Shown here: positions 28,579 to 47,450 of the stretch, one piece after another
Layout: each line of letters starts with the position of its first letter
Position numbering within the stretch: position 1 is the first letter of the stretch
Assembly (NCBI GenBank): GCA_041659045.1
Contig: JBAZZB010000003.1
Coordinates: 28,212 to 92,211, forward strand
Direction: 5' to 3'
From: Patescibacteria group bacterium
GTDB lineage: Bacteria; Patescibacteriota; Patescibacteriia; SG8-24; DYFX01
Length of the DNA: 64,000 nucleotides
Notes under the pieces: generated by a model
Database searches by the model: none
What the model saw: only the letters and a program-made list of their open reading frames with translations
What the model was told of the DNA's origin: nothing
Position numbers and translations under genes: made by a program

Positions 28579-29564
28579 GGCTTCTTGCTGAAGCTATTGG
28601 TGAACATACGGAAGGTTGTCTTCAGCGCGTTCGGCCAAGGCTCCGTCGGCCCGCCTGCTTCACCTTCGCCGTAGGACTGGACGTATGCGAGACGATAGAT
28701 CTTGCCTTCAAGGTTGATATACGCGATAACGCCGTCTGACGCACGGACACCTTCAAGTCCGGACTTCGTGGAAAATTGCTCAACCTGCGTCGGGGAAACG
28801 CTTGGATTCCTCGTCAGATACCAGTCTAGGACGGATTGCGCGTCGGGATTTTCCTCTTTGCGCACTTCAAGATATTCGAAACTTCCGATCGCGAAAACAT
28901 AGGCATTCCAGAATTCTTGGAAACTACCGCCGCCCGGTGTCAGCACCCTGAATGCATCGTTGGCGTCCGCAAACGGAACGACAAGATTCGCTTCTTCAAG
29001 TTTTGTCGGCTTGAAACCAATTGGATTGTACAGGTTTGTGACTTCGAGGCCGTCTGAGTAGCCGTCGCCGTCCGTGTCGCTGTTCAGAGGACCTGTCTTG
29101 TACATTCCCTCTTCAAAATTCGTCAGTCCATCATTATCCGGATCCAGCGCGTCATCATTCGGCGGCGTCGCTGGCGTGGTTGTGGCGGGTTCCGGCTGAG
29201 GTTGCGGTTCTGGTTGTGGCTGGGGTTCGGGTTGAGGCTGCGGCGTCGGGAGGGTGACTGAAGGCGCAACAGGCTGCGCGGGCGGATCTGGACGAAGGAA
29301 CCACCAAATTGCAAAGCCCATACCGGCCAAAAGCACGACGGCAATAATCGGGATGAGAATCCATTTCTTGCTGCCAGATTCTTTTTTCGGTTTTGGAGGT
29401 TCGTTCGACGCAGGACTTGGCACGATCGCCATCGATGTCGTCGGGACAGGCATGTCTTTCGGCAGCTGCGCCTTTGCCGCCACGCCATAAAACTGTTCGG
29501 GGATCGTGTAGATCACCGGATCTTTCGGGGCGGCGGCGCTTTGCGGTGCTGGCTGCTCGGGCAT
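28575..29564 (-). CDS. membrane-anchored protein with PQPEPQ linker and thrombospondin-type-3-like Ca-binding repeats
   Basis: Single TM (WILIPIIAVVLLAGMGFAIWWF), (PQPE)n linker, DPDNDGLTNFEE and DTDGDGYSDGLE D-x-D-x-DG repeats, and a C-terminal domain of about 150 aa. Track M1 is TTG; first ATG at 29564. ATGA overlap with the ybeY start. Confidence 0.6.
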   Translation of the reverse strand: MPEQPAPQSAAAPKDPVIYTIPEQFYGVAAKAQLPKDMPVPTTSMAIVPSPASNEPPKPKKESGSKKWILIPIIAVVLLAGMGFAIWWFLRPDPPAQPVAPSVTLPTPQPQPEPQPQPEPQPQPEPATTTPATPPNDDALDPDNDGLTNFEEGMYKTGPLNSDTDGDGYSDGLEVTNLYNPIGFKPTKLEEANLVVPFADANDAFRVLTPGGGSFQEFWNAYVFAIGSFEYLEVRKEENPDAQSVLDWYLTRNPSVSPTQVEQFSTKSGLEGVRASDGVIAYINLEGKIYRLAYVQSYGEGEAGGPTEPWPNALKTTFRMFTNSFSKKP

Positions 29565-29579
29565 GGCTTTCAAACGTGG

Positions 29580-30176
29580 TTACGGAGCGGGCGGGATCTG
29601 AAGGAGTTTTCCCGCGCCTTTCGGATTGTAGCCGTTTCTGACTTCGTCGCCGTCTTTGAACGTATCGGCGTCCGTATCAACATTGTTCGGATCCGTCATG
29701 TAGACTTCGACTTCTTCTCGGTCGGAGAGCCCGTCGTTGTCTGTGTCGACCATGCCGGCATTCGTGCCGATTTGACTCTCACGCATATCACTCAGACCAT
29801 CGCCATCGCTATCGATTTCCGGCTGAGGCGGTGTTGGCTGCAGCTCGGGCTGCGGCTGTGGTTGAGGTTCAGGTTGTGGCTGGGGCGTGGGTTGCGGTTC
29901 GGGCGTAGGAAGTTGCACTGCGGGTTCCACAGGAACTTTACTGCCACGAAGCGAGAAGTAGGCTGCTGCGCCGCCGCCGATCAAGACGACGACAAGCACG
30001 AGAATCAGAATCCCCTTCTTGCCGAAAGCGGCTTGCTGCATCACGACACCTTGGCTCGCCGCGACCGGAGCTGCAGCTCCAGGCATCTGCGGAGGAACGT
30101 TCGTCGGTTTTTCGGAAGGAATCTCGGCGAAGATATCAGCCGGTTCGGTTTTGTCGTCGAAGAGGAAGAAGATCAT
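29580..30176 (-). CDS. membrane-anchored protein with PQPEPQ linker and TSP3-like repeats (paralog)
   Basis: TM (ILILVLVVVLIGGGAAAYF), (PQPx)n linker, DSDGDGLSD / DTDNDGLSD / DTDADTFKDGDE repeats. Confidence 0.6.
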   Translation of the reverse strand: MIFFLFDDKTEPADIFAEIPSEKPTNVPPQMPGAAAPVAASQGVVMQQAAFGKKGILILVLVVVLIGGGAAAYFSLRGSKVPVEPAVQLPTPEPQPTPQPQPEPQPQPQPELQPTPPQPEIDSDGDGLSDMRESQIGTNAGMVDTDNDGLSDREEVEVYMTDPNNVDTDADTFKDGDEVRNGYNPKGAGKLLQIPPAP

Positions 30177-30182
30177 ACCTTT

Positions 30183-30659
30183 TTATTCTACACAAAATAC
30201 CGGACGCTGTCCTGCGGCACTCGCTTCTTGCTGACGCGTCGCGACCCACGTTTTATCCTGCGTCTTGCCGTCCGTCATCGCTTTGAGCGGATCCGTGCAA
30301 AAAGAACGCACTTCGTCGAGGTCGCTGAGCCCGTCACTATCCGTATCCTTGCGATTCGGATCCGTGCGAAGCATCGCCTCTTCCCCATCGATCAAGCCGT
30401 CGTTATCGCTGTCTTTTTGTGCCGCTTCGGACAAGATCGGCGGAGAATCTCTTTCAAGAGGAACAATGCCATCGGGCTTCGACGTCGCCGGGGAGCCTGG
30501 AACCGGCGTCGGTTTCGCCCCAGTTTCTGTAACAGGAGCAGGAACCTCGACCCCCGGAACCGCAAGGCGTGCCGCGCGAGCGCGGAGGATGATCACGACC
30601 GTTGCGGTTCCTGCGAGGAAAACGGCGACAAGGCTAATGATGATGACAAGTCGCTTCAT
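30183..30659 (-). CDS. membrane-anchored protein with TSP3-like repeats (paralog)
   Basis: N-terminal TM (LVIIISLVAVFLAGTATVVIIL), DSDNDGLIDGEE and DTDSDGLSDLDE repeats. Starts 1 nt after the giant gene's stop. Confidence 0.6.
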   Translation of the reverse strand: MKRLVIIISLVAVFLAGTATVVIILRARAARLAVPGVEVPAPVTETGAKPTPVPGSPATSKPDGIVPLERDSPPILSEAAQKDSDNDGLIDGEEAMLRTDPNRKDTDSDGLSDLDEVRSFCTDPLKAMTDGKTQDKTWVATRQQEASAAGQRPVFCVE

Positions 30660-30660: not shown

Positions 30661-33600
30661 TTAATCGTTCGCGTTCGGGCCGTCGGCTCTGTTTACGTAC
30701 TTGTTCTTCAGTGTGAAACGTCCTTCGGTCGAGGAGGCCGTCTTGTCGATACGACCGATGTACCACATGCAAGGGTTTCCAGAGATGTCCGAGACGCTCG
30801 TGAGTGTGCGAGTCGTGCCGGTTGTGATACCAGAGACGCTCGCAGCTGATCCTGCTTCGATCGTGAAGATGGAGTTTCCTTTGATCGTCGAGCTGGCTCC
30901 CTTCCACCAACCGGTGTTGCGATCGAAGAGCGGTGCCAGGCCGTAGTTTCCATCAACGAAGCAGCTGCCGCCGTTGGCAAAGACATGGTAGGTACCCTGC
31001 GGCAATGACTGGGTCGAGAGCACCATGATTTCAGGGTCTGTTGCGTGCGTGCCGCCCGTTACGTCCCAGAAGAGCTGGATGTGATCGGTCGAGAAGTTGC
31101 CGTTGCCGACATAGCGCGTATCCGGTGAGCCGTCTTTCCAGCCGAAGTAACGCGTTTGTCCCGCGAGCGGACCTGAGCTGTAGACCGCTTTCACGTACAA
31201 GTCGACTTCGTTTGCTGCCGTGTGCGGCGTAGGCCACGAGATCTTGAAGCGGAAGTCGCCTGGGAGAAGTGTGCCGTTGTCGCAACCGCCGGTATAGAGA
31301 CCACAACCTCTTGAGCACAGCACCTGGCCGGCCGTACCGGCACCCTGTGAGGCGCAAGACGGGGCCGCGCCGCCCGCGAATCTGTTTGTGTCGCAGACTT
31401 CACCGTAGGTCGATTGAATCGTATTGTCGCCGCAATAGCCGCCATTCGGATCGTAGACGCAATCGTTACGGCAGACGTACGTCGTGCCTTGGCCGCGCGC
31501 TTCCGGATCACCCTGACCATCGCACTGCTCACCGAACAATCCTTGCTTCACGCCATCACCACAGAACGCCGCGCTCTTCGCATTCGTGCCGAAGCAGGCG
31601 TTTGAACAGTAGTTACAAGAACCATCGAGACGATACGCGACGCACGGACCATTTGCTCCGCATTCGGCATCGCTCGTACAAAGGCGACCGTTGACCTTAC
31701 ATTTTCTGGCCGTCGCGGCCGCTTGCGTGTTGGTGTACGGCTCCGGCTGACACTGCGTGTTATACGCAATGCACTGACCTTCGCCACCCTGACAATACTG
31801 ACCTGCGGCGCAATCTCCAGCAGCGCGGCAAGGCGCACCTTCCGGCGCAGCCGTACCTGTGCCCGTATACGGAGCGTAGGTGCCCGGGTCGAGTTCCAAC
31901 CCCGTACCATCAAAACCGGTATCAGCGCGGTCTGGGGGCGTTGTCGCAGTGGTGACAACGAGGTTCTGCGTGCGCGCCGACATGTTTCCATTGCCATCGA
32001 ACGCGTTGATCGTGATCGTGTGGATGCCCGCTGAAAGCTGACCGACGTTGACGGAGCAAGCCGCGGTCGCCAGGCGCGGATTAAACCGACAGGTTGTTCT
32101 CAATACTTGGACAGCGGCCGTCGTGAGATAGATATCGATGTTGTCGACGAGTGCGGCAGCGTCCGTCACATCCGAAACGGTGATGACAACCGAGTCGTTC
32201 GTTGTCGGACTTGTCGGAGCTGTCGTGATCGCGCCAATCGCGGGAGGAGTCGTGTCGCCAGGAACGCCGGCATTGCACTCACCGGGGCCGCACGTCGCGA
32301 AGGTGACGATCGAACCAGCAAAACGTCGCGCGGCCTCACCAAGAGGACCGAACATCGGAATCTCCACATCAGAACGCGCGAACGTTGATGAGGCGGGTGC
32401 GGCACTCGTGCTCGTGGACGCGCCCGGATAGTTGCGGCAGACGCCCGGCAAGCAGTCGTTGTTCGTCGTGCAACCCTTCACCCCGCTCGTATCAGACGGA
32501 TTCTGGTACGTGCGGCTGCACCAAGCTGTCACCGGACCTGGGTCGCACGTTTCCGGCGGCGCCGAAATTGTCCTATCGCCACAGAAGGCACCGGAAATTG
32601 TTTCAATGGAGCAATCGTTCTTGCAGTAGTTGCAGACAGAACCGTATTGCGGCGTGCAGAGAACTCCGTTGGCCGTGCCGTTGTCGCATTGTTCAACGCC
32701 GGTGCGTACGAAACCATCGTTACAGACGTTGAGCCTGCAGGTCGCGAGACACGTGCCGTTCGGAGAGTTTGCCGCGCCAGCATCGCACTGCTCGGCACCT
32801 TCAACAACACCGTTGCCACAAGCACCGGAAGGACGGCAGATTGACCAATCGTTAAAGGTGCACGCATCGCCAACAGGTTCCGTTGCCGCTTTGCAGCTCT
32901 TGGTACGCGTTTGTGGAAGACCTCCGGTTGTGGCGGCACAGAGCGAGCATGTTTCACCCGTGGCGCAATCAGAAGTTCTGGCGCAAGAAGCGAAGTCGCG
33001 CGGCGCGGTATTTGTATCAACCAACGAGAAGCCGGTTGGGACACAAACACCCTGGGTACTTGTCTGGTTTGCATCGCATTGTTCACCACCGTTGGTACTG
33101 CCATCACCGCAACGAGGACCGGGACCACGGCAGTCCCACGCACAGAAACCGTACTCGCCGTTTCTGGCACCGTCATCACACACTTCAGAACCATTTTTCA
33201 CGCCGTCACCGCAGAAATTCATGCGATCGGTACACACGGACGGATACGGCAAGCCGGAGCAGTCGGAGTTCGTACTGCACGCTTGTCCAAGGTCACAGCT
33301 TCCGTCCGCGCAGTTGCCGTCGAACGACGCGCGCTTGGCGATGTTGACGCAACGCTTCACGCAACCAAGACTACCGCTGCGGCAGCGACCGTACTGGCCG
33401 TTTTGAGCGCCATCATCGCACGATTCACCAGCAAACGATTCAAGGGATCCGTTGCCACACGCAGCAGCTCCAGGGCAAGCCGTCTGCACTTGCCATGTGC
33501 AAGCAGCGTTGCACGTTTCAAAATCTTGTCCGCCGGAGGCACAGGCGACGTTGCGCGTCATGCCGACTTCGCACTCTTCTGTACCTTCAAGCAAACCATT

Positions 33601-36600
33601 ACCACAGGCACCACCAGCAGCTGGGCCGACGAGAGGTACGCCGACTGGCATACACGCATCTTGCGGAGCGCACTGGCTGGAAGAGGTGCAGCTCGCACCC
33701 GTCGCGAGACATGCTCGCGGCGCGGTTGAAGGCTGACCGGAGCAGACTGGAGAAATCGTGATACGCGTCTGGCAGCTACCGGTCGTCGGACCGGAAGGAA
33801 CCCACGAGCAACCCAGCGCAGCATCGCAAGCGAACGCGCTCGGTTTCGATGAACAAGACGTTCCCAACCATTGATAGGTGACGTATTCGAAGTCGACGGC
33901 CATGCGGTAGTCGATGCCGCCGATCGCGCGATACTGGTAGACGTGCGAGTTTGCGGGGCAAGCGAAGATGCCGATCTTGTCGTTGTAGCACGTCTCTGCT
34001 TCGAACGTGGCGCGGCAGACATCCCCTGCTCCACCTGTGCAATCAGAATTCACAGAGCACGCAACACGGCTGATGGAACACTCGGAACCGAACGCTTCGC
34101 AACGATTAAAGGCATTGATCGGATCAACGACACTGCCGGCTCCGCCGAGCTGCTGGCTCCACGAAGGCCACTTGGATGTCGTGAAACCGCGCACGAAACT
34201 GCCGGATTCGAGTTTCGGATAGAAGCCGGTCTGTTCGCGCGACGTCTCGAGCGATTGTTCGATCACACGCATATCCTGCCAGCGGCGCATGTCGCGGCGG
34301 ATCTTGTCTTTGTCGGCGTCACAGCGCATGCCCGCAGGACCGTTCGGCAATGCGCGATCGCAATCAAGATTGCTGCTGCAGGTAATCGGTGCCGTGTTTT
34401 CTGCGGTCAGGTGGAGCAATTCTCCAGCGGCGTTCTTACATACGTTCGTCACGCGATCCGAAGGCACCAAATTCGTGTTGAAGTTGATGTTGCTGACGAG
34501 ACGATTAAAGATTTCCGCCGTGCGCGGGTCCGCGTGATCGTTAAACGCGAAGACGTAGATGTATGAGCGGAGATCCGGATCGCCGTATTTGTCGGCCGCG
34601 CCGATATAGACCGTGCGTTCGTCTTTGATCGCCATGTAGCCATCGACTGTCGCGCTCTGAGTCTTGCCCGAGAAGCGCTGGGCGACGTACCACTCTTGCG
34701 GCGTAAGACGGTCACTGTTTTCGTACACGCGCACACCAATGGCGTCAGAAACCTTCCACTCCGACTGGAAGCGGTACAAGAGGTCTTTGGAGCGGCAGGT
34801 GTCGCCGGCGTTGCAGTCCGCGTTCGTCGTGCAGGCGCGCGATTGCGAGAAATCGGTTGTCGCGGCGCAGAAGCGCAGCAAGCCAGAACCACCAACCGAC
34901 TGTCCTTGCGTCGGAGCGCTCATGAGCTCCGGCAGTGCGGCACCGGCGTTGTCGCGGCAATAATAGAATTCGAAGTGCGTCTGCGGATCGACATACGGTG
35001 CCCAAGCACCCGTCGAGACATCGCGGCGCGGCCACGGCATCTGGCAGAGCATGACCGTGATCGTCGATTTCCCGACTTTGTCCTGACCCGCCGTCGTAGG
35101 CGTGAGTGCCGTATCCGTTGTAATACGAGCGGTCGCAGCAACCTGTTCCTGACCGTTCAAGCCCTTTTTCGCTTGAACGATTGTGGATGGAGCACCCGCA
35201 ACAGCCGTCATGTCGAGAATCGGACCAACCGTGGCGCTCTCCGGGATATTCGCCCAGCTCCACGACCAGTCATAGACGCCAGGAACGGGAGAAATTGCTT
35301 CAAGACGACCACCACGGTCGGTCATCGCCGTCGCGGTGATCGTGAGAGGAATCGCAGAGTCCTGGATGAGTTCCGTCGCCGGCGACGTTTGCACGACGTC
35401 AAAGCGGCAGACATCCGAACCCGTCGTGAAGTCCTGCACGGTGTTGGCGCCTTCGGGATAGCCGACACCCTTGATCGTTTTCACACCCGTCGCTCCGCCA
35501 CGTGCCGTCACGCGATAGAGTCGGTTGGGGCTCAACATCTGTTTCGGAGCGAACGTAGAAATCGTGCGCACCGATGCGTCGGGCGCCGTGACATTCACGT
35601 GCGTAAAGGCGCCTTCGATCGGCGCACAGATATGCGAAGCGGATGCTTCCATGCCGACCAAGGAGCGGAAGAAGCGGCCGACAGAGGAAGCGGCGCGCGC
35701 GAACCACGAGCGCGGGCCTTTTTCGTTGAAGGCGTGGCTCGGGCACGATTCGACGACGAGACCACCCTGCAACGAGCCGGTATTCATTTCTTCGCCGAAC
35801 TCGACGCTGATCTGGACGTTCCGGCATTCGTTGCCGCCCTTCGGATTAATATCCGGCGCGTCCGGACGCGGGAAACAGCACGCTCCGGCGCCGCACGAAA
35901 GATTCGGTCCAAAGGCGGAGCAGTCACTGTCAGCGCGGCAAGAGCACTCAACATTCACGCTCCCCTGTCCGGAGACCGTGCCGATCGCGGCTGTTACCGA
36001 AGCGCTGCAGTTATTGCGGGCGTCGCACTGATTACGCGCTTCGATGACTTGCATCGGATCGATGTTCGCATCGAGCGCCAACGCTTCGCATTCTTCACCG
36101 CCACCGTTTTGAGCATTCGTCAGAGGGTCCGCAGGCTGCATGCTAATAACAGTGTCGCCGCAATAGGCGCGAAGTTCCGGATCGGAACCCGTCCTCGTGC
36201 AACGCGTCGAACAACCGGAAGAGGCGTCGCCGTTCTTGGCGGCCGCGTCGCAGTTTTCACCTTTCGCGGGTTCGATCACGCCGTTGCCACAGCAGTTGGT
36301 GCCGGCAGTGCACGTGACGGGGTTTCCGCGCAGCAAGCAGCTTTGTCCGCAGGCGAAATTCGGACGCGTCGGATTACGTTCATCCGTCGCGCCAAGCGCC
36401 GCAGGCGGGCGTCCAGCGATGAGAAGCTGCGTGGCAAGACCTCCAGCTCCAAGTATGTAGTCGCACTGTTCGCCTGGCGTTTCCAATAAGCCGTTGCCGC
36501 AAACATAGACGTTCTGGCGAGAACCTTCGAGTACGCAGCGCGAGCTGCAGCCGTCGCCATCTTGCGTATTGCCATCGTCGCACGCTTCGCCAACGCCTGT

Positions 36601-39600
36601 GGAGCCGTTGCCGCAAGCCGAGAGTCCAGGGGTGGAACCGACGAGCAAACAGGACGTCGTGCAACCAGCCGCTGCGGTACCATTCGCGGCACCCGCATCG
36701 CACTCTTCTCCGCGATCTGCCTGTACCGTGCTGTCACCGCAACCGTTCGTGAGCGTATTGCCTGTCGACAAGCAGTTCGCATTGCAACCATTCAGCCCGG
36801 GCGTATCACACGCTTCGCCACGTTCAAGCGTGCCGTTGCCGCATGAAGGCGTTCCTGCTGGCTGACTTCCTGTCATGAGACAGTTGGTCGAACAGCCAGC
36901 CGGAAGAATCGGATTGGTGTTGAGAAGCGTACCCGGCGGCACGTCAGGCAAAAGACGAATCGAAACAGGTGAAGCCGGGTTCTGTGCCTTGCTCCATGCC
37001 CAGTTATAGGAAGACGCGTTGAGCATCTGGCCGTTTGCGGCACAGGTGTCAGGAGAGCTCAGTGGCATGGCTGTGATCGGCGATACTTCACCGATGTAGC
37101 GCAGCGTCGTCTGTTGCGGAGCCAGGGTCACGCTTTGCGGACCGCACGGATCGCCGCTTAGGCGCGTGCGGAAAATCCAGCTGAAAGCATTCCCAGAATA
37201 GTTCAGACCCGTGAGAGGCGCTTGGCTCGTACTCTGTGCAGTGCCGAGAATAACGGCGCGGTACCAGGTGTTCGGCGCGAGCGCGACGTTGCCGAACGAC
37301 AAGAGTCTCGCCGGCGCGTTGTAGTTCGGCGCGAGCGGTACTTCACCCTCGAACGTCAGACACGACTCGTTGCGGCAGCGATACAAGCGCACATTCGAAA
37401 GAATGCTGCTGGGACCGCTTTCAGCCATCGGCGTGTTGAAGTAGGCGAAACCGACCGTGTTGACGCAGGCTTCGTTGCAGTCGTGCGGGCCATACTCAAC
37501 AACGCGCGGGTTGGCGTAATCAACCGTCAGCAAACCGGAGTCTGCAAAACCATCGACCGTCGAACGGATTTGGATCGGCGGACCTGGGTCGGTTTCGGAA
37601 ACCGGCGTCGCGACCGCTTCGCACTGGCGCGAACCGCCAAGCGAAACAATCGTCGCTTTACCCGGATCGGTCGAAGCCCAGTTCACGGTGCGACCAGCGC
37701 AGGAAAGAATGATGCAGCGGCTCGATAGCGGGAACGCTTGATAATCCTTGGTTTCGTCGGCAGCGGCAATCAGCGCGCTCGTCGGTTGCACGTCGACACC
37801 GGAAATCACGCAAGGACCAGCCCCTGTTTTGAAGGACGTAACATAGGCGCCACCTGCGCGACCATCGAAGTTGCCGTCGAGCACCTGTGCTCCCCTCTCG
37901 GCTGTACCGAGGCTGCGTACCTGGTCTCGGATCGTCAGCCGATACCACGTGTTCGGCGCGAGTCCGTTTACCGGCAACACGAGTTGCGAGCGGCCGTCGG
38001 TGTCGTAATCGAGAAGACTCGGCGCTCCAGCACCCGCGACAGCAGAACACGTTGTTGAGATCGTTGCTCCCGTGCCACAAGCTTCAAAGACGACGTTCGC
38101 GGCGTTGAACGTGGCAGGATCCATCGGCAAGCTGAAACGTGCCGTCATGGTTCCCATGTCGGTACAGACGTCGGTCATGCCCTTGAAGGGGTTCGGGCTC
38201 GGCATAGCCGAAGGAGCCGTGGCTTGGCACGTCGCGTTCTCCATGACGATCGGGAACACCGGAATCGGTCCGGTCGAGAACTGCCATGCAAAACCACCAG
38301 CAGCGGCCGCAGCACCGCACGACGCGCGGCAAGCACCATCATCGCAGCAGCTGCGTCCGCTACCGCACGAAGCATCGCCACCACTCTCGCGGCAATCACG
38401 AATCTGGAAATTTACACCATTGGATTCAGCCGGTGTCGCACCAACAAACGTGCGCACACGCACCGGACCCGTCGTCGCGCCATCGGGAACCGACGCAGCA
38501 ATCGAAGACGACTGCCACTGGCCGATTGAAGAGGCGTTGATGTTGTCGTTGAAACGAACAGCGTCAGGATGCGCGGTGATGAAGGCCGGAAGATCGGCGC
38601 CGGAAATCGTGCCGAAACCGTCGCCGTAGAGCGTCACCGCGGTGCCGATCGGGCCGTTGTCGGGATCGACGCGGCAGAGGCCAGGCGTGAGCGGATCGGT
38701 ATTGATCGTAAACGGAATTGCGTTTGATACGCGACCGTCGGAACGCACAACCGTGACGTTGTACGCACCAAGCGCGACCGCCGTGTCAGCCGGCGTCGTG
38801 AAACGCGCAGGAACTTTGACGGTGACGCTGGCGTTCGTCCAATAGCCCGCCGCGCATTGCGCCGGGAAACTGATATCACCGACCGCTTCGCCCGCAGCAT
38901 TCCTGAAACGCACCGTGCCGCCGGAACCAAAGTTCGAACCGAAGAGCGACACGTACGTGCCAACCGATCCGTCTTCTGGCGTGATGAATTCGACGCGCGG
39001 TTCGGTTCCCGCTTCAGGAGGTTCGACGCGAAGACATGCTGTGTTCGAGGGCTGTCCCGCAACCGTTACGCGCAACAAGAAATTCGAACCATCAAAATCT
39101 GTTTCAACGTTCGGAATTGTCGGCGAGAAGGACGTTTCACTCCACGGAGACACCTGGGAAGCTTCCGCAGCCGTCGTCCAATCTTGAATTTGAGAACAAT
39201 CGGCACCGGCGCGCGTAATTTGCACGCGTGAATCACCCTGTGCCGCGCCAAAGGCGAGACCGGTCACAACGACCGTATTCCCCGTTTTCACCGAAGCCGG
39301 AGCGACCGAACAAATACCCGGACGTGCGACGTCGTTCACCTGGAAATCGGTGATGATCGGTCCGTAGGCATCGTTCGTCGCGTCTTGGCGTCCTCCGGAA
39401 GCAGCGACGCGAATCGGTCCCGTAACCGCGCCTTGCGGCACGAGTACGACAATACGATTGTCACTCCAAGCGTTTGCGCATTGTGCGACGGTCGCCACTT
39501 GATCATCCCCTGCCGCCGCCGTACCCAAGAACGTCACGGTACCCGCCGTCGATCCGAAACGATCACCCGTGATCGTCACGAGGTTACCGGGACGACCGTC

Positions 39601-40923
39601 GCGAAGTTGCACGTCGGTGATCTGCGGATTCTCGACGCACTGGCCGTTCTGGCAGAGACCGGAAGAGCATTGGCTGTTGTCGGTGCAGCTGCCGCCGGTG
39701 CAGGCACCGCATGAACCACCGCAATCGACCGCGACTTCGTCTCCATCGCGTACATTGTTGAAACAGAATTGCGGGCGCACCGTCACACGCACCGCGCTCG
39801 AACGCGCTTCGTCGCCGTCGATGTTGACCGCGCGAGCCGAGAGAGAAACCGTTCTGACCGGTGCTAGGCCTGTGGTGTCCCACACCGACTGGCTCGAATA
39901 CGTTGAAGGCGCGATGTTTTGAACGTTGCCGTCCGCCGTGAAGAAAGCGCCATCCGCCGAATATTCAACCGTCGCGATACCGCTTTCGTCGGTAGCGATC
40001 GCTTGGATCGGCACGAGGTCGCCGGCCGGAACGGACTGGCCGTCGGTCGGGCTGGAAATCGTAATCGTCGGCGGTTCCGTCATGACGGTTTCGCCGGTTC
40101 TGAAACTCCGCGAGCACATCGCGCCGAGGCCACAGCTCACCGTGCGCGGATCAGACGTCGAAGCATTGCGGAGTCCCGCGCGCACCGTGATCTGGTAGTC
40201 GGTGTTTTGTTCGAGACAGCGGCGATCAGCGTTCGGTGCCGGGCACGGCGTTACCGGACGCAAACGAATCGTAAAATTTTCAACAACGGGTTCGTAGTCG
40301 ACGCTCGTGCGCGTTGTGCCTTCAACCTTCTCAAGAAGAATGTTGGCGCGAATGTTGGTCGCGTCATCGGTCGGCGCGGCGCTGAAGGTCACGGCCGCCG
40401 TGACGTCGTATTTCGGAAGCGAGCCGCTCGGCTGAATCGCCGTCGGTCGGAAAGCACCACCGGAACCGCCACCAAAACCGCCTCCCCCGCCTCCGCCGCC
40501 GCCAGGACCGCCACCGCCAGGGCCACCCGTCGTCGCACTGATCAGCGAACTCAGAACGTAGGAAACGATCGCGAAGGCCGACATGATAATGACGAGTCCG
40601 ATCACCGCGCCCGAGAGCGTTTTCTTCGCGCGCGTGATTTTGGTCTCATCCCCCGCCGCCGTCATCCAAGTGAAACCCGCGTACAAAACAAGAAGCAGTG
40701 CGATCGTGCCGAGAAGGCCGAGCCCTACGCGAATGATGCGAGCGATCGTGATGCGAATGTCGGTCGTGCCGGTTCCAAGCTCCGCGCCAATTTGGCCCGG
40801 AAGAATCTCGTTCGAGGTCACGCCCTGCGCGTTTACCACGCCATGAGACGCAAACCACAAGCACGGCGCGAGAAGCGCCAGGCTGATGATCCATGATCGA
40901 TGACGTCGGAAGAACGCGCGCAT
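30661..40923 (-). CDS. giant secreted/surface protein (3420 aa): pilin-like two-helix N-terminal module, Gly-rich linker, IPT/TIG-like and Ig-like domains, at least 15 Cys-rich CGNG...GE.CD repeats
   Basis: Single uninterrupted ORF in the track. N-terminus has a signal peptide, two hydrophobic helices and a poly-Gly run. IPT/TIG-like units (e.g. PQITDVQLRDGRPGNLVTITGDRFG). Repeats such as CGNGSTGVGEACDDGNTQDGDGCSSRCVLE resemble the Myxococcus-type cysteine-rich repeat. Confidence 0.8.
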   Translation of the reverse strand: MRAFFRRHRSWIISLALLAPCLWFASHGVVNAQGVTSNEILPGQIGAELGTGTTDIRITIARIIRVGLGLLGTIALLLVLYAGFTWMTAAGDETKITRAKKTLSGAVIGLVIIMSAFAIVSYVLSSLISATTGGPGGGGPGGGGGGGGGFGGGSGGAFRPTAIQPSGSLPKYDVTAAVTFSAAPTDDATNIRANILLEKVEGTTRTSVDYEPVVENFTIRLRPVTPCPAPNADRRCLEQNTDYQITVRAGLRNASTSDPRTVSCGLGAMCSRSFRTGETVMTEPPTITISSPTDGQSVPAGDLVPIQAIATDESGIATVEYSADGAFFTADGNVQNIAPSTYSSQSVWDTTGLAPVRTVSLSARAVNIDGDEARSSAVRVTVRPQFCFNNVRDGDEVAVDCGGSCGACTGGSCTDNSQCSSGLCQNGQCVENPQITDVQLRDGRPGNLVTITGDRFGSTAGTVTFLGTAAAGDDQVATVAQCANAWSDNRIVVLVPQGAVTGPIRVAASGGRQDATNDAYGPIITDFQVNDVARPGICSVAPASVKTGNTVVVTGLAFGAAQGDSRVQITRAGADCSQIQDWTTAAEASQVSPWSETSFSPTIPNVETDFDGSNFLLRVTVAGQPSNTACLRVEPPEAGTEPRVEFITPEDGSVGTYVSLFGSNFGSGGTVRFRNAAGEAVGDISFPAQCAAGYWTNASVTVKVPARFTTPADTAVALGAYNVTVVRSDGRVSNAIPFTINTDPLTPGLCRVDPDNGPIGTAVTLYGDGFGTISGADLPAFITAHPDAVRFNDNINASSIGQWQSSSIAASVPDGATTGPVRVRTFVGATPAESNGVNFQIRDCRESGGDASCGSGRSCCDDGACRASCGAAAAAGGFAWQFSTGPIPVFPIVMENATCQATAPSAMPSPNPFKGMTDVCTDMGTMTARFSLPMDPATFNAANVVFEACGTGATISTTCSAVAGAGAPSLLDYDTDGRSQLVLPVNGLAPNTWYRLTIRDQVRSLGTAERGAQVLDGNFDGRAGGAYVTSFKTGAGPCVISGVDVQPTSALIAAADETKDYQAFPLSSRCIILSCAGRTVNWASTDPGKATIVSLGGSRQCEAVATPVSETDPGPPIQIRSTVDGFADSGLLTVDYANPRVVEYGPHDCNEACVNTVGFAYFNTPMAESGPSSILSNVRLYRCRNESCLTFEGEVPLAPNYNAPARLLSFGNVALAPNTWYRAVILGTAQSTSQAPLTGLNYSGNAFSWIFRTRLSGDPCGPQSVTLAPQQTTLRYIGEVSPITAMPLSSPDTCAANGQMLNASSYNWAWSKAQNPASPVSIRLLPDVPPGTLLNTNPILPAGCSTNCLMTGSQPAGTPSCGNGTLERGEACDTPGLNGCNANCLSTGNTLTNGCGDSTVQADRGEECDAGAANGTAAAGCTTSCLLVGSTPGLSACGNGSTGVGEACDDGNTQDGDGCSSRCVLEGSRQNVYVCGNGLLETPGEQCDYILGAGGLATQLLIAGRPPAALGATDERNPTRPNFACGQSCLLRGNPVTCTAGTNCCGNGVIEPAKGENCDAAAKNGDASSGCSTRCTRTGSDPELRAYCGDTVISMQPADPLTNAQNGGGEECEALALDANIDPMQVIEARNQCDARNNCSASVTAAIGTVSGQGSVNVECSCRADSDCSAFGPNLSCGAGACCFPRPDAPDINPKGGNECRNVQISVEFGEEMNTGSLQGGLVVESCPSHAFNEKGPRSWFARAASSVGRFFRSLVGMEASASHICAPIEGAFTHVNVTAPDASVRTISTFAPKQMLSPNRLYRVTARGGATGVKTIKGVGYPEGANTVQDFTTGSDVCRFDVVQTSPATELIQDSAIPLTITATAMTDRGGRLEAISPVPGVYDWSWSWANIPESATVGPILDMTAVAGAPSTIVQAKKGLNGQEQVAATARITTDTALTPTTAGQDKVGKSTITVMLCQMPWPRRDVSTGAWAPYVDPQTHFEFYYCRDNAGAALPELMSAPTQGQSVGGSGLLRFCAATTDFSQSRACTTNADCNAGDTCRSKDLLYRFQSEWKVSDAIGVRVYENSDRLTPQEWYVAQRFSGKTQSATVDGYMAIKDERTVYIGAADKYGDPDLRSYIYVFAFNDHADPRTAEIFNRLVSNINFNTNLVPSDRVTNVCKNAAGELLHLTAENTAPITCSSNLDCDRALPNGPAGMRCDADKDKIRRDMRRWQDMRVIEQSLETSREQTGFYPKLESGSFVRGFTTSKWPSWSQQLGGAGSVVDPINAFNRCEAFGSECSISRVACSVNSDCTGGAGDVCRATFEAETCYNDKIGIFACPANSHVYQYRAIGGIDYRMAVDFEYVTYQWLGTSCSSKPSAFACDAALGCSWVPSGPTTGSCQTRITISPVCSGQPSTAPRACLATGASCTSSSQCAPQDACMPVGVPLVGPAAGGACGNGLLEGTEECEVGMTRNVACASGGQDFETCNAACTWQVQTACPGAAACGNGSLESFAGESCDDGAQNGQYGRCRSGSLGCVKRCVNIAKRASFDGNCADGSCDLGQACSTNSDCSGLPYPSVCTDRMNFCGDGVKNGSEVCDDGARNGEYGFCAWDCRGPGPRCGDGSTNGGEQCDANQTSTQGVCVPTGFSLVDTNTAPRDFASCARTSDCATGETCSLCAATTGGLPQTRTKSCKAATEPVGDACTFNDWSICRPSGACGNGVVEGAEQCDAGAANSPNGTCLATCRLNVCNDGFVRTGVEQCDNGTANGVLCTPQYGSVCNYCKNDCSIETISGAFCGDRTISAPPETCDPGPVTAWCSRTYQNPSDTSGVKGCTTNNDCLPGVCRNYPGASTSTSAAPASSTFARSDVEIPMFGPLGEAARRFAGSIVTFATCGPGECNAGVPGDTTPPAIGAITTAPTSPTTNDSVVITVSDVTDAAALVDNIDIYLTTAAVQVLRTTCRFNPRLATAACSVNVGQLSAGIHTITINAFDGNGNMSARTQNLVVTTATTPPDRADTGFDGTGLELDPGTYAPYTGTGTAAPEGAPCRAAGDCAAGQYCQGGEGQCIAYNTQCQPEPYTNTQAAATARKCKVNGRLCTSDAECGANGPCVAYRLDGSCNYCSNACFGTNAKSAAFCGDGVKQGLFGEQCDGQGDPEARGQGTTYVCRNDCVYDPNGGYCGDNTIQSTYGEVCDTNRFAGGAAPSCASQGAGTAGQVLCSRGCGLYTGGCDNGTLLPGDFRFKISWPTPHTAANEVDLYVKAVYSSGPLAGQTRYFGWKDGSPDTRYVGNGNFSTDHIQLFWDVTGGTHATDPEIMVLSTQSLPQGTYHVFANGGSCFVDGNYGLAPLFDRNTGWWKGASSTIKGNSIFTIEAGSAASVSGITTGTTRTLTSVSDISGNPCMWYIGRIDKTASSTEGRFTLKNKYVNRADGPNAND

Positions 40924-40926: not shown

Positions 40927-42708
40927 TTATGGGAGGAAGCCGCAAGCGACCTGTGAAGGCACGCCATTGCAGCAATACGGTTCAGTTCCGGTACAGACCG
41001 TCTGGCCGCCGCCTGGGTAGAAGCAGTTCTGGCGCAAATCGCGCAGGCCGGAGGTGAGGTTGATGGCGTACGGCTGGTTGATCGACAGAAGATCGTGATC
41101 AATGATGCCTTTCGTTTGATCTGGATCACCACCAACGACGGAAGAAATCGCTTCGGTCTCGATCGAGTAGTTCGTCGGGGCACCATTCGCTCCCGGCACG
41201 AGCCTGGCATTATCCGTCGTGAAGCTCGTCGAGCTCATGAGTTTCGAGAACGTCACCGCCATCGCGAGATCGCGCGCGATGTTGCCCTGCAGCACCGCCG
41301 GTTCCTGAGAGACAACTTTCGGCGGCACGAGATCGATCTCGTTGGACGTGCGGAAGTCAGACGTGTAGTCGTCATCGGGAGAACCTTGCGCCGTACCGTT
41401 GCCGTTACCATCGAGCGCGTTACCCGCCATGTCGGTGATGCCGTTGGGAGGATAGATGCCGAGCGGCGGAGTCGATGTCAGCGCGTCGGTGCGCACGCGT
41501 ACGTTGATTTGTTGGTTGCCTGGGAGGCAGAACACTTCTTCGCCGCAAGAGTTCGTGCCGCAAGCTTCGTTGGTGTGGAATTCGACGGTGCGATAGGCGT
41601 TACCGATCTGCTGCACGCCCGGAACGACGTTGCCGCCCGTGCGCGTGATCGAGAGGCCGGAGGTCACACTGACCGGATCAACCGCTTCATCGAACGTCAC
41701 CTGGACCAGCGAGTTGCGCGGCACGCCACTCGCGCCGTCGTTCGGGATGACGTAGGAAACTTTCGGCGGCGTAAGGTCGAGCACTGTTGAAACCTGGAAC
41801 TCCCAGAGATACCCGGAGTTGAAAGTGCCCGTGAAAGCCGGAGCGCCTCCTTCGCGGCGCACGCCGTCCGTACCACCGCGGAGACCGATCGTATAGAAGA
41901 CGTTTTCTGATGGGCTGCCGAAGCAGTTCGTCGGACAATTGCGCTGCACAAACGTCACGCTGCGACCATCAGCGGAAACAGCGACGTCGATATCGGCAGA
42001 CGTCAGGCTCTGTGAGAATTTTTGCGCGAATTGGTTCGACGAAGTAACGTCAGCGGATTTTGAAATCGCGACCGTTGCGTTCGCGCCACCAACGACGATC
42101 GAAGCAGGGTCGATGCGTTGCTTGAATGTGACGACGACACGCGTGTTGCGCGCGACACCTGTCGCGTTGCGATTCGGATAATGGCTCTCAATAATACCGT
42201 TACCGAGCGCGCCAGCCGGGCAGGTTGCCGAAAGGCCGATGCACGCACGATCGTCCGGCGCGCTGGAGCCGCTGCCCGGGCCTCCCCCGCCGGGGCCGCC
42301 GCCTTCAGCGAGCAAACGACTGATGACAAACGAGGTGATCGCAAAAGCAGACAACATGATGACCAACCCGATGACGGCGGACGTCAGGATTTTCTTGGCG
42401 CGATCGACCTTCTCGGGTTCGCCGGCGGCTGTCATCCAAATGAAGCCGGCGTACAAAATAAGGAGAAGCGCGATCGTGCCGAGGAAACCGAAGAATGCGC
42501 GAATAATACGGGCAATCGTCACGCGAATGTCGCCCGTGCCTGTTCCAATAACGTTTCCAAGTTCCGTCGGCAACACTTCATTGGCCGTCACCTGCGCTTG
42601 CGCCAGATGTGCAAAAGCGAAGGACGCAAAAACCACCAACACGAAACTGGCGACCGTGAAGGTGGCTTTAACGAGTACTTGGGAGAGTGACTTCCTTCCT
42701 GAGAGCAT
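40927..42708 (-). CDS. secreted protein (593 aa) with the same pilin-like N-terminal module followed by Ig-like domains
   Basis: About 70 % identity to the giant protein over the first 130 aa or so (...DIRVTIARIIR...GTIALLL.LYAGF.WMTAAG...RAKK.L..AVIGLVI..SAFAI.S.V.S.L..GGPGGGGPG). Ends 3 nt before the giant gene's start. Confidence 0.75.
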   Translation of the reverse strand: MLSGRKSLSQVLVKATFTVASFVLVVFASFAFAHLAQAQVTANEVLPTELGNVIGTGTGDIRVTIARIIRAFFGFLGTIALLLILYAGFIWMTAAGEPEKVDRAKKILTSAVIGLVIMLSAFAITSFVISRLLAEGGGPGGGGPGSGSSAPDDRACIGLSATCPAGALGNGIIESHYPNRNATGVARNTRVVVTFKQRIDPASIVVGGANATVAISKSADVTSSNQFAQKFSQSLTSADIDVAVSADGRSVTFVQRNCPTNCFGSPSENVFYTIGLRGGTDGVRREGGAPAFTGTFNSGYLWEFQVSTVLDLTPPKVSYVIPNDGASGVPRNSLVQVTFDEAVDPVSVTSGLSITRTGGNVVPGVQQIGNAYRTVEFHTNEACGTNSCGEEVFCLPGNQQINVRVRTDALTSTPPLGIYPPNGITDMAGNALDGNGNGTAQGSPDDDYTSDFRTSNEIDLVPPKVVSQEPAVLQGNIARDLAMAVTFSKLMSSTSFTTDNARLVPGANGAPTNYSIETEAISSVVGGDPDQTKGIIDHDLLSINQPYAINLTSGLRDLRQNCFYPGGGQTVCTGTEPYCCNGVPSQVACGFLP

Positions 42709-47272: not shown

Positions 47273-47273
47273 A

Positions 47274-47350: not shown

Positions 47351-47371
47351 GTGGCAGGAGGGTCGAACGGC

Positions 47372-47400: not shown

Positions 47401-47450
47401 ACACGGGTAAAGAGCAGTTTAGCAGGCTTTTCGCCCTTGAGCAAGTCCTC

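What the first reader, a model, noticed from the sequence alone, without database searches (positions are those of the whole stretch)
30661..40923. 3420-aa giant protein with at least 15 Cys-rich CGNG...GE.CD repeats and IPT/TIG-like domains
A 10.3-kb uninterrupted ORF. After the N-terminal module there are IPT/TIG-like units (e.g. PQITDVQLRDGRPGNLVTITGDRFG, PRVEFITPEDGSVGTYVSLFGSNFG). Two blocks of repeats of the form C-G-(N/D)-G-x4-7-G-E-x-C-D...C...C follow, e.g. CGNGSTGVGEACDDGNTQDGDGCSSRCVLE. These resemble the Myxococcus-type cysteine-rich repeat, here at unusually high copy number. The architecture looks like a giant adhesin or surface fibre and is likely lineage-specific.
Basis: partly seen in the sequence, partly recalled or inferred. 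Interest (0 to 1): 0.6.

Follow-up and report, generated by a model that had tools for sequence, protein, structure and literature searches.

The report
Giant pilin-anchored surface fibre of Patescibacteria
This is a real 3,420-residue cell-surface protein of an ultra-small (Patescibacteria) bacterium, held in the membrane by a secretion-pilin-like hairpin and built from Ig-like domains and cysteine-rich repeats; it belongs to a large, conserved but uncharacterised family that probably forms the fibre these cells use to contact hosts or surfaces.

Summary
There is one uninterrupted 10,263-nt ORF on the minus strand, with four IPT/TIG domains and 15 Cys-rich CG(N/D)G…E-x-C-D units. These units lie in three blocks, not two, and score above the curated cutoff of TIGR02232, the Myxococcus repeat model.

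- The N-terminus is a signal peptide plus a VirB2-like T4SS_pilin hairpin, so about 3,290 residues lie outside the cell.
- The gene sits in a tight operon: yqeY, a 593-aa paralogue with the same hairpin, the giant gene, three TSP3-repeat membrane proteins, ybeY, ftsA, ftsZ. This order is conserved in 12 related Patescibacteria loci and two distant ones.
- It belongs to a family of more than 1,000 sequence clusters. Many members are 3,000–4,400 aa and colinear. They share a central module (PsbP/Mog1-like plus pseudopilin-like fold) with no Pfam model.
- The whole gene is under strong purifying selection (dN/dS 0.02–0.10). The last ~600 residues are swapped or remodelled between clades.

Best reading: a membrane-anchored extracellular fibre with a conserved stalk and a variable distal binding end. 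It is a new variant of a known kind, widespread in Paceibacteria and not narrowly lineage-specific. Function is inferred, not shown.

The parts
30661..40923 (-). Giant gene, 3,420 aa plus stop
   Evidence: Orthologues 68-93% identical in loci L002-L013. dN/dS 0.02-0.10.
40825..40923 (-). aa 1-33: signal peptide (hydrophobic core aa 11-30; likely cleavage after VNA, read by eye)
   Evidence: Hydropathy scan. N-terminus MR.FFRRHR conserved in orthologues. The cleavage site is inferred.
40534..40770 (-). aa 52-130: VirB2-like T4SS_pilin hairpin, two TM helices (about 58-91 and 101-131) joined by a K/R-rich loop
   Evidence: PF18895 30.7 bits, cutoff 26.6. NF045849 28.6 bits, below its cutoff of 40. 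Hydropathy. 72-96% identical among orthologues.
40444..40533 (-). aa 131-160: poly-Gly/Pro linker
   Evidence: Sequence.
40072..40446 (-). aa 160-284: Big_5-like beta-sandwich
   Evidence: hhalign against the Big_5 unit, probability 96.3%; against the aa 1690-1835 unit, 96.8%.
39772..40071 (-). aa 285-384: Big_7 bacterial Ig domain
   Evidence: PF17957 36.6-43.3 bits, cutoff 24.1.
39628..39771 (-). aa 385-432: 8-Cys knot (CGGSCGAC...)
   Evidence: Sequence and Cys count.
38350..39627 (-). aa 433-858: four IPT/TIG domains
   Evidence: PF01833 58.6 bits, 4 stretches. hhalign 99.1-99.9% between units. The only PDB sequence matches are the TIG-like domain of CGTases.
36859..38238 (-). aa 896-1355: two (Big_5-like + second Ig-like type) pairs: 896-1010, 1011-1130, 1131-1250, 1251-1355
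   Evidence: PF13205 40.3 bits. hhalign Big5 vs 1131-1250 99.6%; 1011-1130 vs 1251-1355 98.6%.
36004..36858 (-). aa 1356-1640: Cys-rich repeat block A, 6 units
   Evidence: TIGR02232 54.9 bits, 4 stretches. Own HMM.
35047..35856 (-). aa 1690-1959: third (Big_5-like + second Ig-like type) pair
   Evidence: hhalign 98.5% to Big_5; 1836-1959 vs 1011-1130 96.1%. Big_5 sub-threshold, E 5e-4.
33877..35046 (-). aa 1960-2349: conserved central module, the family signature; PsbP/Mog1-like alpha/beta domain followed by a long helix plus small sheet resembling a pseudopilin/type IV pilin head
32494..33618 (-). aa 2436-2810: Cys-rich repeat block B, 7 units; 43 Cys
   Evidence: TIGR02232 21.1 bits, 4 stretches. 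Own HMM.
31342..32493 (-). aa 2811-3194: clade-variable region (linker, Ig-like unit about 2880-3010, Cys-rich stretch with repeat block C, 2 units at aa 3121-3192)
   Evidence: 19-49% identity and large indels among six full-length orthologues, including a 133-aa deletion in L005/L007/L012. No match in 150 distant relatives, apart from the Cys-rich stretch (aa 3010-3200) in the closest one, P0002. Block C units found by own HMM only.
30664..31341 (-). aa 3195-3420: C-terminal, fast-diverging, predicted all-beta domain (the presumed distal tip)
   Evidence: A profile of orthologue tips finds it at the extreme C-terminus of 7 distant members (E 1e-19 to 1e-5), and of 38 after iteration. No Pfam hit. 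AF2 model unreliable, pLDDT 39.8.
40927..42708 (-). Upstream 593-aa paralogue: same VirB2-like hairpin plus three Big_5 domains; its stop lies 3 nt before the giant's ATG
   Evidence: PF18895 36.7 bits, Big_5 73.9 bits with 3 stretches. DNA repeat 40649-40821 / 42419-42591, 72% identical. Syntenic in all loci.
30183..30659 (-). Downstream gene 1: 158-aa single-TM protein with TSP3_bac Ca-binding repeats
   Evidence: PF18884 40.1 bits. Syntenic.
29580..30176 (-). Downstream gene 2: 198-aa TM protein, (PQ/PE)n linker, TSP3_bac repeats
   Evidence: PF18884 50.5 bits. Syntenic.
28575..29573 (-). Downstream gene 3: 332-aa TM protein, (PQ/PE)n linker, TSP3_bac repeat, C-terminal domain of unknown type; overlaps the ybeY start by 4 nt
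   Evidence: PF18884 27.8 bits. Syntenic.

Best explanation
The gene encodes a membrane-anchored extracellular fibre of a Patescibacteria (class Paceibacteria / 'Minisyncoccota') cell.

Shown:
- The N-terminus has a signal peptide followed by a VirB2-type two-helix hairpin (T4SS_pilin).
- The rest of the protein has no hydrophobic segments and holds 176 cysteines.
- The architecture is colinear and conserved: at least 12 Ig-like beta-sandwiches (four Big_5-like, one Big_7, four TIG, three of a further type), 15 Myxococcus-type Cys-rich units in three blocks, and a family-defining central module.
- The last ~600 residues are remodelled between clades.
- The gene lies in a conserved, tightly packed operon with a 593-aa paralogue carrying the same hairpin and with three TSP3-repeat membrane proteins.

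Inferred:
- The positively charged loop of the hairpin stays in the cytoplasm, so about 3,290 residues project outward.
- The ectodomain is a disulfide-stiffened rod, of the order of 80-100 nm if extended.
- The Ig and Cys modules act as a rigid stalk.
- The variable C-terminal region and terminal beta domain form the distal binding end that contacts a host cell or a surface. This end is VWA-like in one orthologue and carries an SdrD_B/CarboxypepD_reg-like unit in others.
- The short paralogue and the Ca-binding TSP3 proteins form the base or envelope attachment of the same structure.
For: Topology. PF18895 is above its cutoff in both the giant and its neighbour. The only three hydrophobic segments lie in aa 1-131, the loop is K/R-rich, and 176 Cys lie in the remainder.

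Extracellular module types. TIG, Big_5, Big_7 and TIGR02232 are all above their cutoffs. hhalign self-comparison supports the Ig-like domain count.

Real and constrained. Full-length colinear orthologues exist, including one in a complete genome. dN/dS is 0.02-0.10 over the whole ORF, with dS about 1. 149 of 177 Cys are invariant.

Stalk and tip pattern. Residues 1-2800 are 60-83% identical with no indel over 10 aa. Residues 2800-3420 are 19-49% identical with many indels. Different end modules occur in orthologues: VWA_2 at E 8e-5 with a DISGS motif in L012, and SdrD_B/CarboxypepD_reg-like in L005/L007. The terminal domain is detectable only by profile in distant members, and always at the extreme C-terminus.

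Operon. Gaps are 1-6 nt or overlapping. The order SPase-HisRS-YqeY-paralogue-giant-TSP3 genes-YbeY-FtsA-FtsZ is conserved in L002-L012 and in the distant loci L014 and L015.

Literature.
- VirB2-like pilins are widespread in Patescibacteria, and no PrgB-type adhesin was found there (PMC12102498).
- T4SS_pilin-domain genes are among the genes of Paceibacterales MAGs that a metatranscriptomic study singled out and linked to host adhesion (PMC10936435).
- Large exported Cys-rich proteins with weak Myxococcus-repeat similarity were noted in CPR Peregrinibacteria and linked to rigidity or attachment (PMC4736985).
- A DUF4215-repeat protein is a component of diatom adhesive trails.
Against: - There is no experimental or expression evidence for this gene.
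- No recognised ligand-binding domain is found in this window's own tip: no Pfam hit, and the AF2 model is unusable (pLDDT 39.8).
- Among close relatives the tip is under purifying selection (dN/dS 0.04-0.19). It is swapped between clades, not continuously diversified.
- The deep synteny next to ftsA/ftsZ and the near-universal colinear architecture fit a housekeeping envelope component as well as they fit an adhesin.
- Whether the hairpin stays in the membrane or is handled by a T4SS-like machine is unknown. No T4SS gene lies in the 64-kb window.
Confidence: 0.55

Rival explanations
1. It is a modular VirB2-type pilin. The hairpin is extracted from the membrane by the Patescibacteria T4SS-like machine and incorporated into, or capped onto, a VirB2-like pilus. 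The 3,290-aa extension is then displayed as a pilus-borne adhesin, by analogy with the modular type IV pilins of Streptococcus sanguinis.
For: - PF18895 is above its cutoff in the giant and in its paralogue.
- The hairpin is very strongly conserved for a mere anchor: 72-96% among orthologues, and still 59-74% between the two paralogues. This suggests specific helix-helix contacts.
- Patescibacteria carry VirB2-like pilin arrays, and the T4SS genes are essential in Ca. Southlakia epibionticum (PMC12102498; PMC10633639).
- There is precedent for pilin-plus-module fusions in type IV pili (PMC8179133).
Against: - No virB4, virB6 or other T4SS gene lies in the window or in the +/-10 kb flanks of 14 related loci. 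The gene sits in a housekeeping operon.
- A 350-kDa passenger on every subunit is sterically incompatible with a VirB2 helical polymer, so it could only be a rare tip or minor subunit.
- No VirB2 family member with a large extension is documented in the papers read.
Confidence: 0.17
2. It is a structural envelope or S-layer-like scaffold, not an adhesin. On this reading it is a core component of the Paceibacteria cell envelope that sets cell shape or spacing and is co-inherited with the division genes.
For: - The operon position between yqeY and ybeY-ftsA-ftsZ is conserved even in members only 35-39% identical.
- The architecture is colinear and purifying selection is strong over the whole length.
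- The gene takes about 0.9% of a 1.17-Mb genome.
- The co-operonic Ca-binding TSP3 membrane proteins could tie it to the wall.
Against: - S-layer proteins normally self-assemble into lattices, and no S-layer family was detected by Pfam or NCBIfam.
- A clade-specific, module-swapping distal end, including a VWA-like unit, is more typical of ligand-binding tips.
- Synteny with ftsAZ may simply reflect a stable core-genome neighbourhood.
Confidence: 0.18
3. It is a polymorphic toxin or effector. A conserved filament would deliver a variable C-terminal toxin domain, with the downstream small genes acting as immunity proteins.
For: A conserved N-terminal 2,800 aa with a variable C-terminal 600 aa, followed by small genes, superficially resembles the layout of CdiA- or Rhs-type loci.
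Against: - No toxin, Rhs, or pre-toxin domain was detected in the tips by Pfam or NCBIfam.
- The tips that can be read are VWA-like or beta-sandwich-like.
- The downstream genes are membrane proteins with extracellular TSP3 repeats. TSP3b and TSP3c stay homologous across loci whatever the tip type, unlike immunity genes.
Confidence: 0.03
4. It is an artefact: a chimeric or collapsed assembly, or a decaying pseudogene that happens to stay open.
For: Giant repeat-bearing genes are frequent sites of misassembly. Several related contigs end inside the gene.
Against: - Five independent full-length orthologues are colinear over about 2,800 aa, one of them in a closed genome.
- There is no DNA-level repeat inside the gene.
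- dN/dS is 0.02-0.10 everywhere.
- The chance of an open frame this long is about 3e-51.
Confidence: 0.01

Closest known systems
Myxococcus-type cysteine-rich acidic repeat proteins (NCBIfam TIGR02232; Pfam DUF4215 / IPR011936)
   Same: The same C-G-(N/D)-G-x-GE-x-C-D...C-x3-C unit, above the TIGR02232 cutoff in blocks A and B. The context is extracellular and probably disulfide-bonded. A DUF4215 protein is an adhesive-trail component in diatoms. Large exported Cys-rich proteins with weak similarity to these repeats were already noted in CPR Peregrinibacteria (PMC4736985).
   Different: Here the repeats are only about 20% of the protein. They are interleaved with Ig-like domains in fixed positions across a Patescibacteria-wide family, and the protein is anchored by a VirB2-like hairpin. 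Pfam DUF4215 is not reached. No function or solved structure is known for the repeat itself.
VirB2/TrbC-like T4SS pilins of Patescibacteria (Pfam PF18895 T4SS_pilin)
   Same: Signal peptide plus two TM helices with a short basic loop. PF18895 is above its cutoff. Two adjacent paralogous hairpin genes recall the reported pilin 'arrays' (PMC12102498).
   Different: Classical VirB2 is a small protein (PMC12102498), roughly 100 aa from general knowledge. This one has a 3,290-aa extracellular extension. It is not next to virB4 or other T4SS genes within the window or the fetched flanks, and sits in a housekeeping operon. The two paralogues are 59-74% identical in the hairpin, against about 25% average within the reported arrays.
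Giant Ig-repeat surface adhesins (for example SiiE, LapA/BAP-type, Ebh; Giant1-5 of Apilactobacillus kunkeei, PMC12863079)
   Same: Multi-thousand-residue extracellular rods made of many Ig-like domains, with a presumed role in cell-cell or cell-surface contact.
   Different: There is no T1SS/RTX signal, no LPXTG and no near-identical tandem repeats. The anchor is N-terminal and pilin-like. The modules are heterogeneous and their order is conserved across a whole bacterial class. The comparison with SiiE, LapA and Ebh rests on general knowledge, not on a test here.
Modular type IV pilins (S. sanguinis PilB/PilC: pilin module fused to VWA or lectin modules; PMC8179133)
   Different: The anchoring module here is T4SS-type (VirB2-like), not a class III signal peptide pilin. 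The internal pilin-like domain lacks the hydrophobic alpha1-N needed for filament assembly. The extension is more than ten times larger.

Membership tests
TIGR02232 myxo_disulf_rpt (Myxococcus cysteine-rich repeat) | HMM score at or above the curated cutoff (20.8 bits) | tested here: met
   38.9 bits for the whole protein. Block A 54.9 bits with 4 stretches; block B 21.1 bits with 4 stretches; block C no hit.
TIGR02232 myxo_disulf_rpt (Myxococcus cysteine-rich repeat) | Four-Cys unit with acidic E-x-C-D core, repeated in tandem | tested here: met
   12 strict and 3 relaxed units. About 9 of the 12 strict units show the full C...C[DE]...C-x3-C spacing. The motif is expected 0.0015 times by chance.
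Pfam DUF4215 (PF13948) | Gathering score of 27 bits | tested here: not met
   19.7 bits (whole protein), 23.6 bits (block A), 22.2 bits (block B).
IPT/TIG domain (PF01833) | Gathering score of 20.9 bits | tested here: met
   46.8 bits; 58.6 bits with 4 stretches on aa 430-900. hhalign 99% or more between the four units.
VirB2-like T4SS pilin (PF18895 T4SS_pilin) | HMM score above the gathering score (26.6 bits) | tested here: met
   30.7 bits for the giant; 36.7 bits for the upstream paralogue. The equivalog NF045849 is not reached (28.6 and 37.1 bits, cutoff 40).
VirB2-like T4SS pilin (PF18895 T4SS_pilin) | Signal peptide followed by two TM helices with a short basic cytoplasmic loop | tested here: met
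   Hydrophobic segments at aa 11-30, 58-91 and 101-131. The loop is TAAGDETKITRAKKT.
VirB2-like T4SS pilin (PF18895 T4SS_pilin) | Small protein (about 100 aa) that forms the pilus polymer | tested here: not met
   3,420 aa, with about 3,290 aa following the hairpin. Polymerisation cannot be tested here.
VirB2-like T4SS pilin (PF18895 T4SS_pilin) | Encoded with T4SS genes (virB4, virB6 and others) | tested here: not met
   No T4SS family appears among the window ORFs scanned or among the called genes of L014 and L015. The rest of the genome was not available.
Type IV pilin / T2SS pseudopilin (for the central module, aa about 2200-2350) | Class III signal peptide and hydrophobic alpha1-N helix | tested here: not met
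   The domain is internal and there is no hydrophobic segment beyond aa 131.
Type IV pilin / T2SS pseudopilin (for the central module, aa about 2200-2350) | Pilin head fold or a sequence-profile match | tested here: inconclusive
PsbP/Mog1/LpqN-like fold (for the central module, aa about 2045-2160) | Structural similarity of a confident model | tested here: inconclusive
T1SS/RTX or sortase-anchored giant adhesins | C-terminal RTX/T1SS signal, or LPXTG plus a TM tail; near-identical tandem repeats | tested here: not met
   No RTX nonapeptide or LPxTG motif. No such Pfam hit. No DNA-level repeats in the gene.
Polymorphic toxin systems | C-terminal toxin domain with a cognate downstream immunity gene that co-varies with it | tested here: not met
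   No toxin family is detected in the tips. The downstream genes TSP3b and TSP3c stay homologous across loci with different tips.
DGR (diversity-generating retroelement) target | Template/variable repeat pair and a reverse transcriptase nearby | tested here: not met
   No direct repeat involves the 3' end of the gene anywhere in the window. No RT appears among the scanned ORFs.

The most novel reading that the evidence does not exclude
This could be the first described 'modular VirB2 pilin'. On this reading a T4SS-type pilin hairpin has been recruited, across the whole class Paceibacteria, as the base of a core surface organelle about 100 nm long. The organelle would comprise the giant fibre, its 593-aa paralogue and three Ca-binding TSP3 membrane proteins. 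It would carry an internal pseudopilin-like module and an exchangeable distal end that sets host specificity. It would then be the missing adhesin of the Patescibacteria T4SS-like apparatus and a main determinant of episymbiotic attachment.
Probability: 0.25. Interest if true: 0.8.

Novelty: new variant of a known kind. Interest (0 to 1): 0.55.

Why it matters
Patescibacteria are a large share of bacterial diversity, and most are thought to live attached to other cells. For the class Paceibacteria the molecules that make contact are essentially unknown. A T4SS survey of the phylum found no PrgB-type adhesin (PMC12102498).

This gene takes about 0.9% of a ~1.2-Mb genome. It is under strong purifying selection, it is conserved in position and architecture across very divergent members, and it is anchored by a VirB2-like hairpin. 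That makes it a concrete, testable candidate for the attachment or envelope fibre seen on ultra-small cells.

It also defines an unnamed, widespread central domain (over 1,000 sequence clusters, no Pfam model). And it gives a natural handle, the exchangeable C-terminal end, for asking what sets host range.

Tried and rejected
- Whole-protein search of the 5.8-billion-protein index timed out.
- An exact look-up of the protein found nothing.
- The word-index search with aa 1641-2430 returned only one fragment, P0001. This wrongly suggested rarity; the exhaustive HMMER search then found 1,194 representatives.
- Word-index searches with the tip, as a single sequence and as a profile, found only two fragments from close relatives.
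Redone with permitted distant rows, it gave an unusable model (pLDDT 39.8), so no fold search was run on it.
- The afdb50 fold library was unavailable.
- Foldseek against PDB gave nothing at E<0.001. A profile search of the central domain against PDB sequences gave nothing.
- DGR, phase-variation and tandem-repeat ideas were rejected: there is no TR/VR-like repeat and no tandem array in the gene.
- Concerted evolution of the two hairpins was rejected: orthologues are closer than paralogues.
- Promoter and terminator scans were at chance level.
- The supplement of PMC10936435 did not contain the locus tags I looked for, so expression of homologues could not be confirmed.
- The giant-gene preprint 10.1101/2023.11.21.568195 concerns Omnitrophota-type giants and does not describe this family.
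Full report
**1. Observation**

The window carries a single open frame on the minus strand, 30661..40923. It has 3,420 codons plus a stop, starts at ATG and has no internal stop. At the local base composition (about 59% G+C) the chance of 3,420 stop-free codons is about 3e-51.

Pfam finds these families above their gathering scores:
- T4SS_pilin, aa 68-123, 30.7 bits
- Big_7, aa 285-342
- IPT/TIG, 46.8 bits
- Big_5, aa 902-1005

DUF4215 is below threshold. Scanning sub-segments raises TIG to 58.6 bits with four stretches. NCBIfam TIGR02232, the 'Myxococcus' cysteine-rich acidic repeat, scores 38.9 bits against a cutoff of 20.8.

A strict regex for CG[NDQ][GSRT]…E-x-C-[DE] matches 12 times, against 0.0015 expected in shuffles. 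An HMM built from these units adds three weaker ones, giving 15. They lie in three blocks, not two:
- aa 1361-1614, 6 units; TIGR02232 54.9 bits with 4 stretches
- aa 2440-2806, 7 units; 21.1 bits with 4 stretches
- aa 3121-3192, 2 units; no hit

So the description is correct apart from the number of blocks.

**2. Is the ORF real?**

No DNA-level direct or tandem repeat lies inside the gene, so repeat collapse is unlikely.

A scan of one genome per species returned 12 loci with orthologues 68-93% identical. All come from Patescibacteria MAGs; some are mislabelled 'Gammaproteobacteria' in their records. One is the complete genome CP129476.1. Full-length ORFs of 3,202-3,418 aa are present in five independent assemblies. 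The other loci are cut by contig ends.

Nei-Gojobori dN/dS against three close orthologues is 0.02-0.10 in every 200-codon window, with dS about 1. 149 of 177 Cys are invariant among six full-length sequences. The gene is therefore functional along its whole length.

**3. Anatomy**

Hydropathy finds only three hydrophobic segments, all within aa 1-131. They are a signal peptide (aa 11-30) and two TM helices (about 58-91 and 101-131). The helices are joined by the basic loop TAAGDETKITRAKKT. This is the VirB2/TrbC layout matched by PF18895. By the positive-inside rule the remaining ~3,290 residues, which hold 176 Cys, are extracellular. That topology is an inference.

After a poly-Gly linker, profile-profile self-comparison together with Pfam gives this order:
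- Big_5-like domain (aa 160-284)
- Big_7 (aa 285-384)
- an 8-Cys knot
- four TIG domains (aa 433-858)
- two pairs of Big_5-like plus a second Ig-like type (aa 896-1355)
- Cys-repeat block A
- a third such pair (aa 1690-1959)
- a central module (aa 1960-2349)
- Cys-repeat block B
- a variable region that includes block C
- a C-terminal 226-aa domain

That makes at least 12 beta-sandwich domains and 15 Cys-rich units. A rough extended length is 80-100 nm (my estimate).

**4. The central module and the family**

The word-index search suggested the central region was nearly unique, with one hit. The exhaustive HMMER search with aa 1960-2430 found 1,194 cluster representatives at E<=1e-3 and 1,077 at E<=1e-10.

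Of the best 150, 66 are longer than 2,800 aa. Of these, 62 share the N-terminal hairpin. Most detectable stalk domains occur in the same order and at similar positions. None shares this window's last ~600 residues, apart from the Cys-rich stretch (aa 3010-3200) in the closest relative, P0002. The only names sources give are 'IPT/TIG domain-containing protein', from Ca. Magasanikbacteria and Ca. Nomurabacteria.

An AF2 model built with 22 family rows has pLDDT 66.6 and pTM 0.65, and is high in residues 1-280. It shows an alpha/beta domain followed by a 29-residue helix and a small sheet.
- Foldseek ranks the same PsbP/Apa/Mog1 proteins first, but not significantly.
- One of 22 homologues hits Pfam T2SSG at E 0.009.

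The conserved motif K-x-K-x-x-RD-x-KR-x-x-D…G-x-YP…LP-x-DP-x-N resembles, from my memory of GspG-type pseudopilins, the start of a pilin head. I treat this as a lead only. The domain has no hydrophobic alpha1-N, so it cannot be a conventional filament subunit.

**5. The C-terminal end**

Among six full-length orthologues, residues 1-2800 are 60-83% identical with no indel over 10 aa. Residues 2800-3420 drop to 19-49% identity with many indels.

Close relatives (L002, L006, L009) keep this window's tip under purifying selection. More distant orthologues differ:
- L004 has a diverged version.
- L005 and L007 have an SdrD_B/CarboxypepD_reg-like unit (sub-threshold) plus a different beta domain.
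- L012 has a VWA-like end (VWA_2 at E 8e-5, with a DISGS motif).

So it is a family-wide but fast-diverging terminal domain. Its fold could not be determined (pLDDT 39.8).

**6. Context**

The gene lies in a compact minus-strand operon:
- yqeY
- a 593-aa protein with the same hairpin plus three Big_5 domains; its stop is 3 nt before the giant's ATG
- the giant
- three single-TM proteins with TSP3_bac Ca-binding repeats, separated by 1-6 nt
- ybeY, overlapping by 4 nt
- ftsA and ftsZ

The same order is found in all 12 related loci. It is also found in two distant members whose central domains are only 35-39% identical: L014 from GCA_900089805.1 and L015 from a JGI metagenome.

The hairpins of the giant and its neighbour are 59-74% identical. 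Orthologues are closer to each other, at 72-96% and 67-93%. This indicates an old duplication with strong constraint and no gene conversion.

No T4SS gene, reverse transcriptase or toxin family occurs in the window. No further hairpin or Cys-repeat gene occurs there either.

**7. Mechanism**

The best-supported reading (confidence about 0.55) is a membrane-anchored extracellular fibre. It would have a VirB2-like hairpin at the base, a rigid stalk of Ig-like and disulfide-knotted modules, a conserved central module of unknown role, and a clade-specific distal end that binds a host cell or a surface. The short paralogue and the TSP3 proteins would be partners at the base.

What is shown: the domain content, the hydrophobic segments that define the topology, the conservation pattern and the operon. 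What is inferred: the orientation, the rigidity, the binding function and the partnership.

Rivals:
- A modular VirB2 pilin handled by the T4SS-like machine (0.17).
- A structural envelope or S-layer-like scaffold tied to the division locus (0.18).
- A polymorphic toxin (0.03).
- An artefact (0.01).

**8. Comparison with what is known**

The repeat is a member of TIGR02232, with the cutoff met. Pfam DUF4215 is not reached.

The N-terminus meets PF18895 and the VirB2 topology. It fails the small-size and T4SS-neighbourhood features, so I describe it as VirB2-like and not as a T4SS pilin.

It works like giant Ig-repeat adhesins. It lacks their secretion and anchoring signals and their tandem-identical repeats.

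Prior literature bears on three points:
- Large exported Cys-rich proteins with weak Myxococcus-repeat similarity were noted in CPR Peregrinibacteria (PMC4736985).
- VirB2-like pilins are known to be widespread in Patescibacteria, with no adhesin identified (PMC12102498).
- A metatranscriptomic study of Paceibacterales listed T4SS_pilin-domain genes among candidate host-adhesion genes (PMC10936435).

I found no paper that describes this family, its central module or its operon. My literature search was limited to the held library.

**9. Verdict**

The finding is real and ordinary in kind: a giant surface protein. Its construction is unusual, and it is unexpectedly conserved and widespread in Paceibacteria. 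I rate it a new variant of a known kind, with interest 0.55.

Noticed in passing
window 55544-56995 (-), repeats at 56042-56362: A 483-aa ORF with no Pfam hit contains about 9 copies of a 7-residue (E/V)xPKPVVE-type repeat. The DNA period is 21 nt. The flanking domains are of unknown type.
   Followed up: partly
window 46658-47890 (-) and tRNA-Val 47274-47350 (-): The mechanical 410-aa ORF for the S26 signal peptidase runs over a tRNA-Val gene. The Peptidase_S26 domain occupies only residues 238-399, and homologues in L014 and L015 are 204-217 aa. The true start is probably downstream of the tRNA.
   Followed up: partly
window 2925-6459 (-): A CHASE2-sensor adenylate/guanylate cyclase (642 aa) sits directly downstream of a FecR-domain protein (532 aa). 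This looks like a possible extracellular-signal module, which is notable in such a reduced genome.
   Followed up: no
window 13522-18262 (-): Three consecutive ORFs (385, 337 and 482 aa) have no Pfam hit at E<=0.001. They lie in one of the higher-GC stretches of the window (about 0.60-0.61).
   Followed up: no
window 29177-29243 and 29828-29933 (-): The TSP3b and TSP3c proteins carry (PQ/PE)n linkers, encoded by imperfect 12/18/36-nt tandem repeats, between their TM helix and the Ca-binding TSP3 repeats.
   Followed up: partly
L012:8812-18441; L005:7627-17562; L007:11592-21518: Orthologues of the giant end in different modules. L012 has a VWA-like domain with a DISGS motif. L005 and L007 have an SdrD_B/CarboxypepD_reg-like unit plus another beta domain, and lack a 133-aa segment present in the window protein.
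   Followed up: partly
window 30664-30690 (-); C-termini of L002, L005, L007: Very divergent tips still end in a short P-(N/D)-x-x-D motif (GPNAND, LPDNAD, LPDNVD). This could be a sorting, processing or Ca-binding signal.
   Followed up: no
L001:3-5386 (ENA ERZ28564302 scaffold_36045): A distant homologue (27% identity over the central region) is split into two overlapping open frames of 1,085 and 746 codons on a 7-kb contig. This is either a frameshift or assembly error, or a decaying copy.
   Followed up: no
method note (vs 32): The word-index protein search returned 1 hit for the central region, while the exhaustive HMMER search returned 1,194 representatives. Cys-rich, low-complexity words seem to have swamped the candidate list, so 'rare' verdicts from the index search on such proteins are unreliable.
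   Followed up: yes
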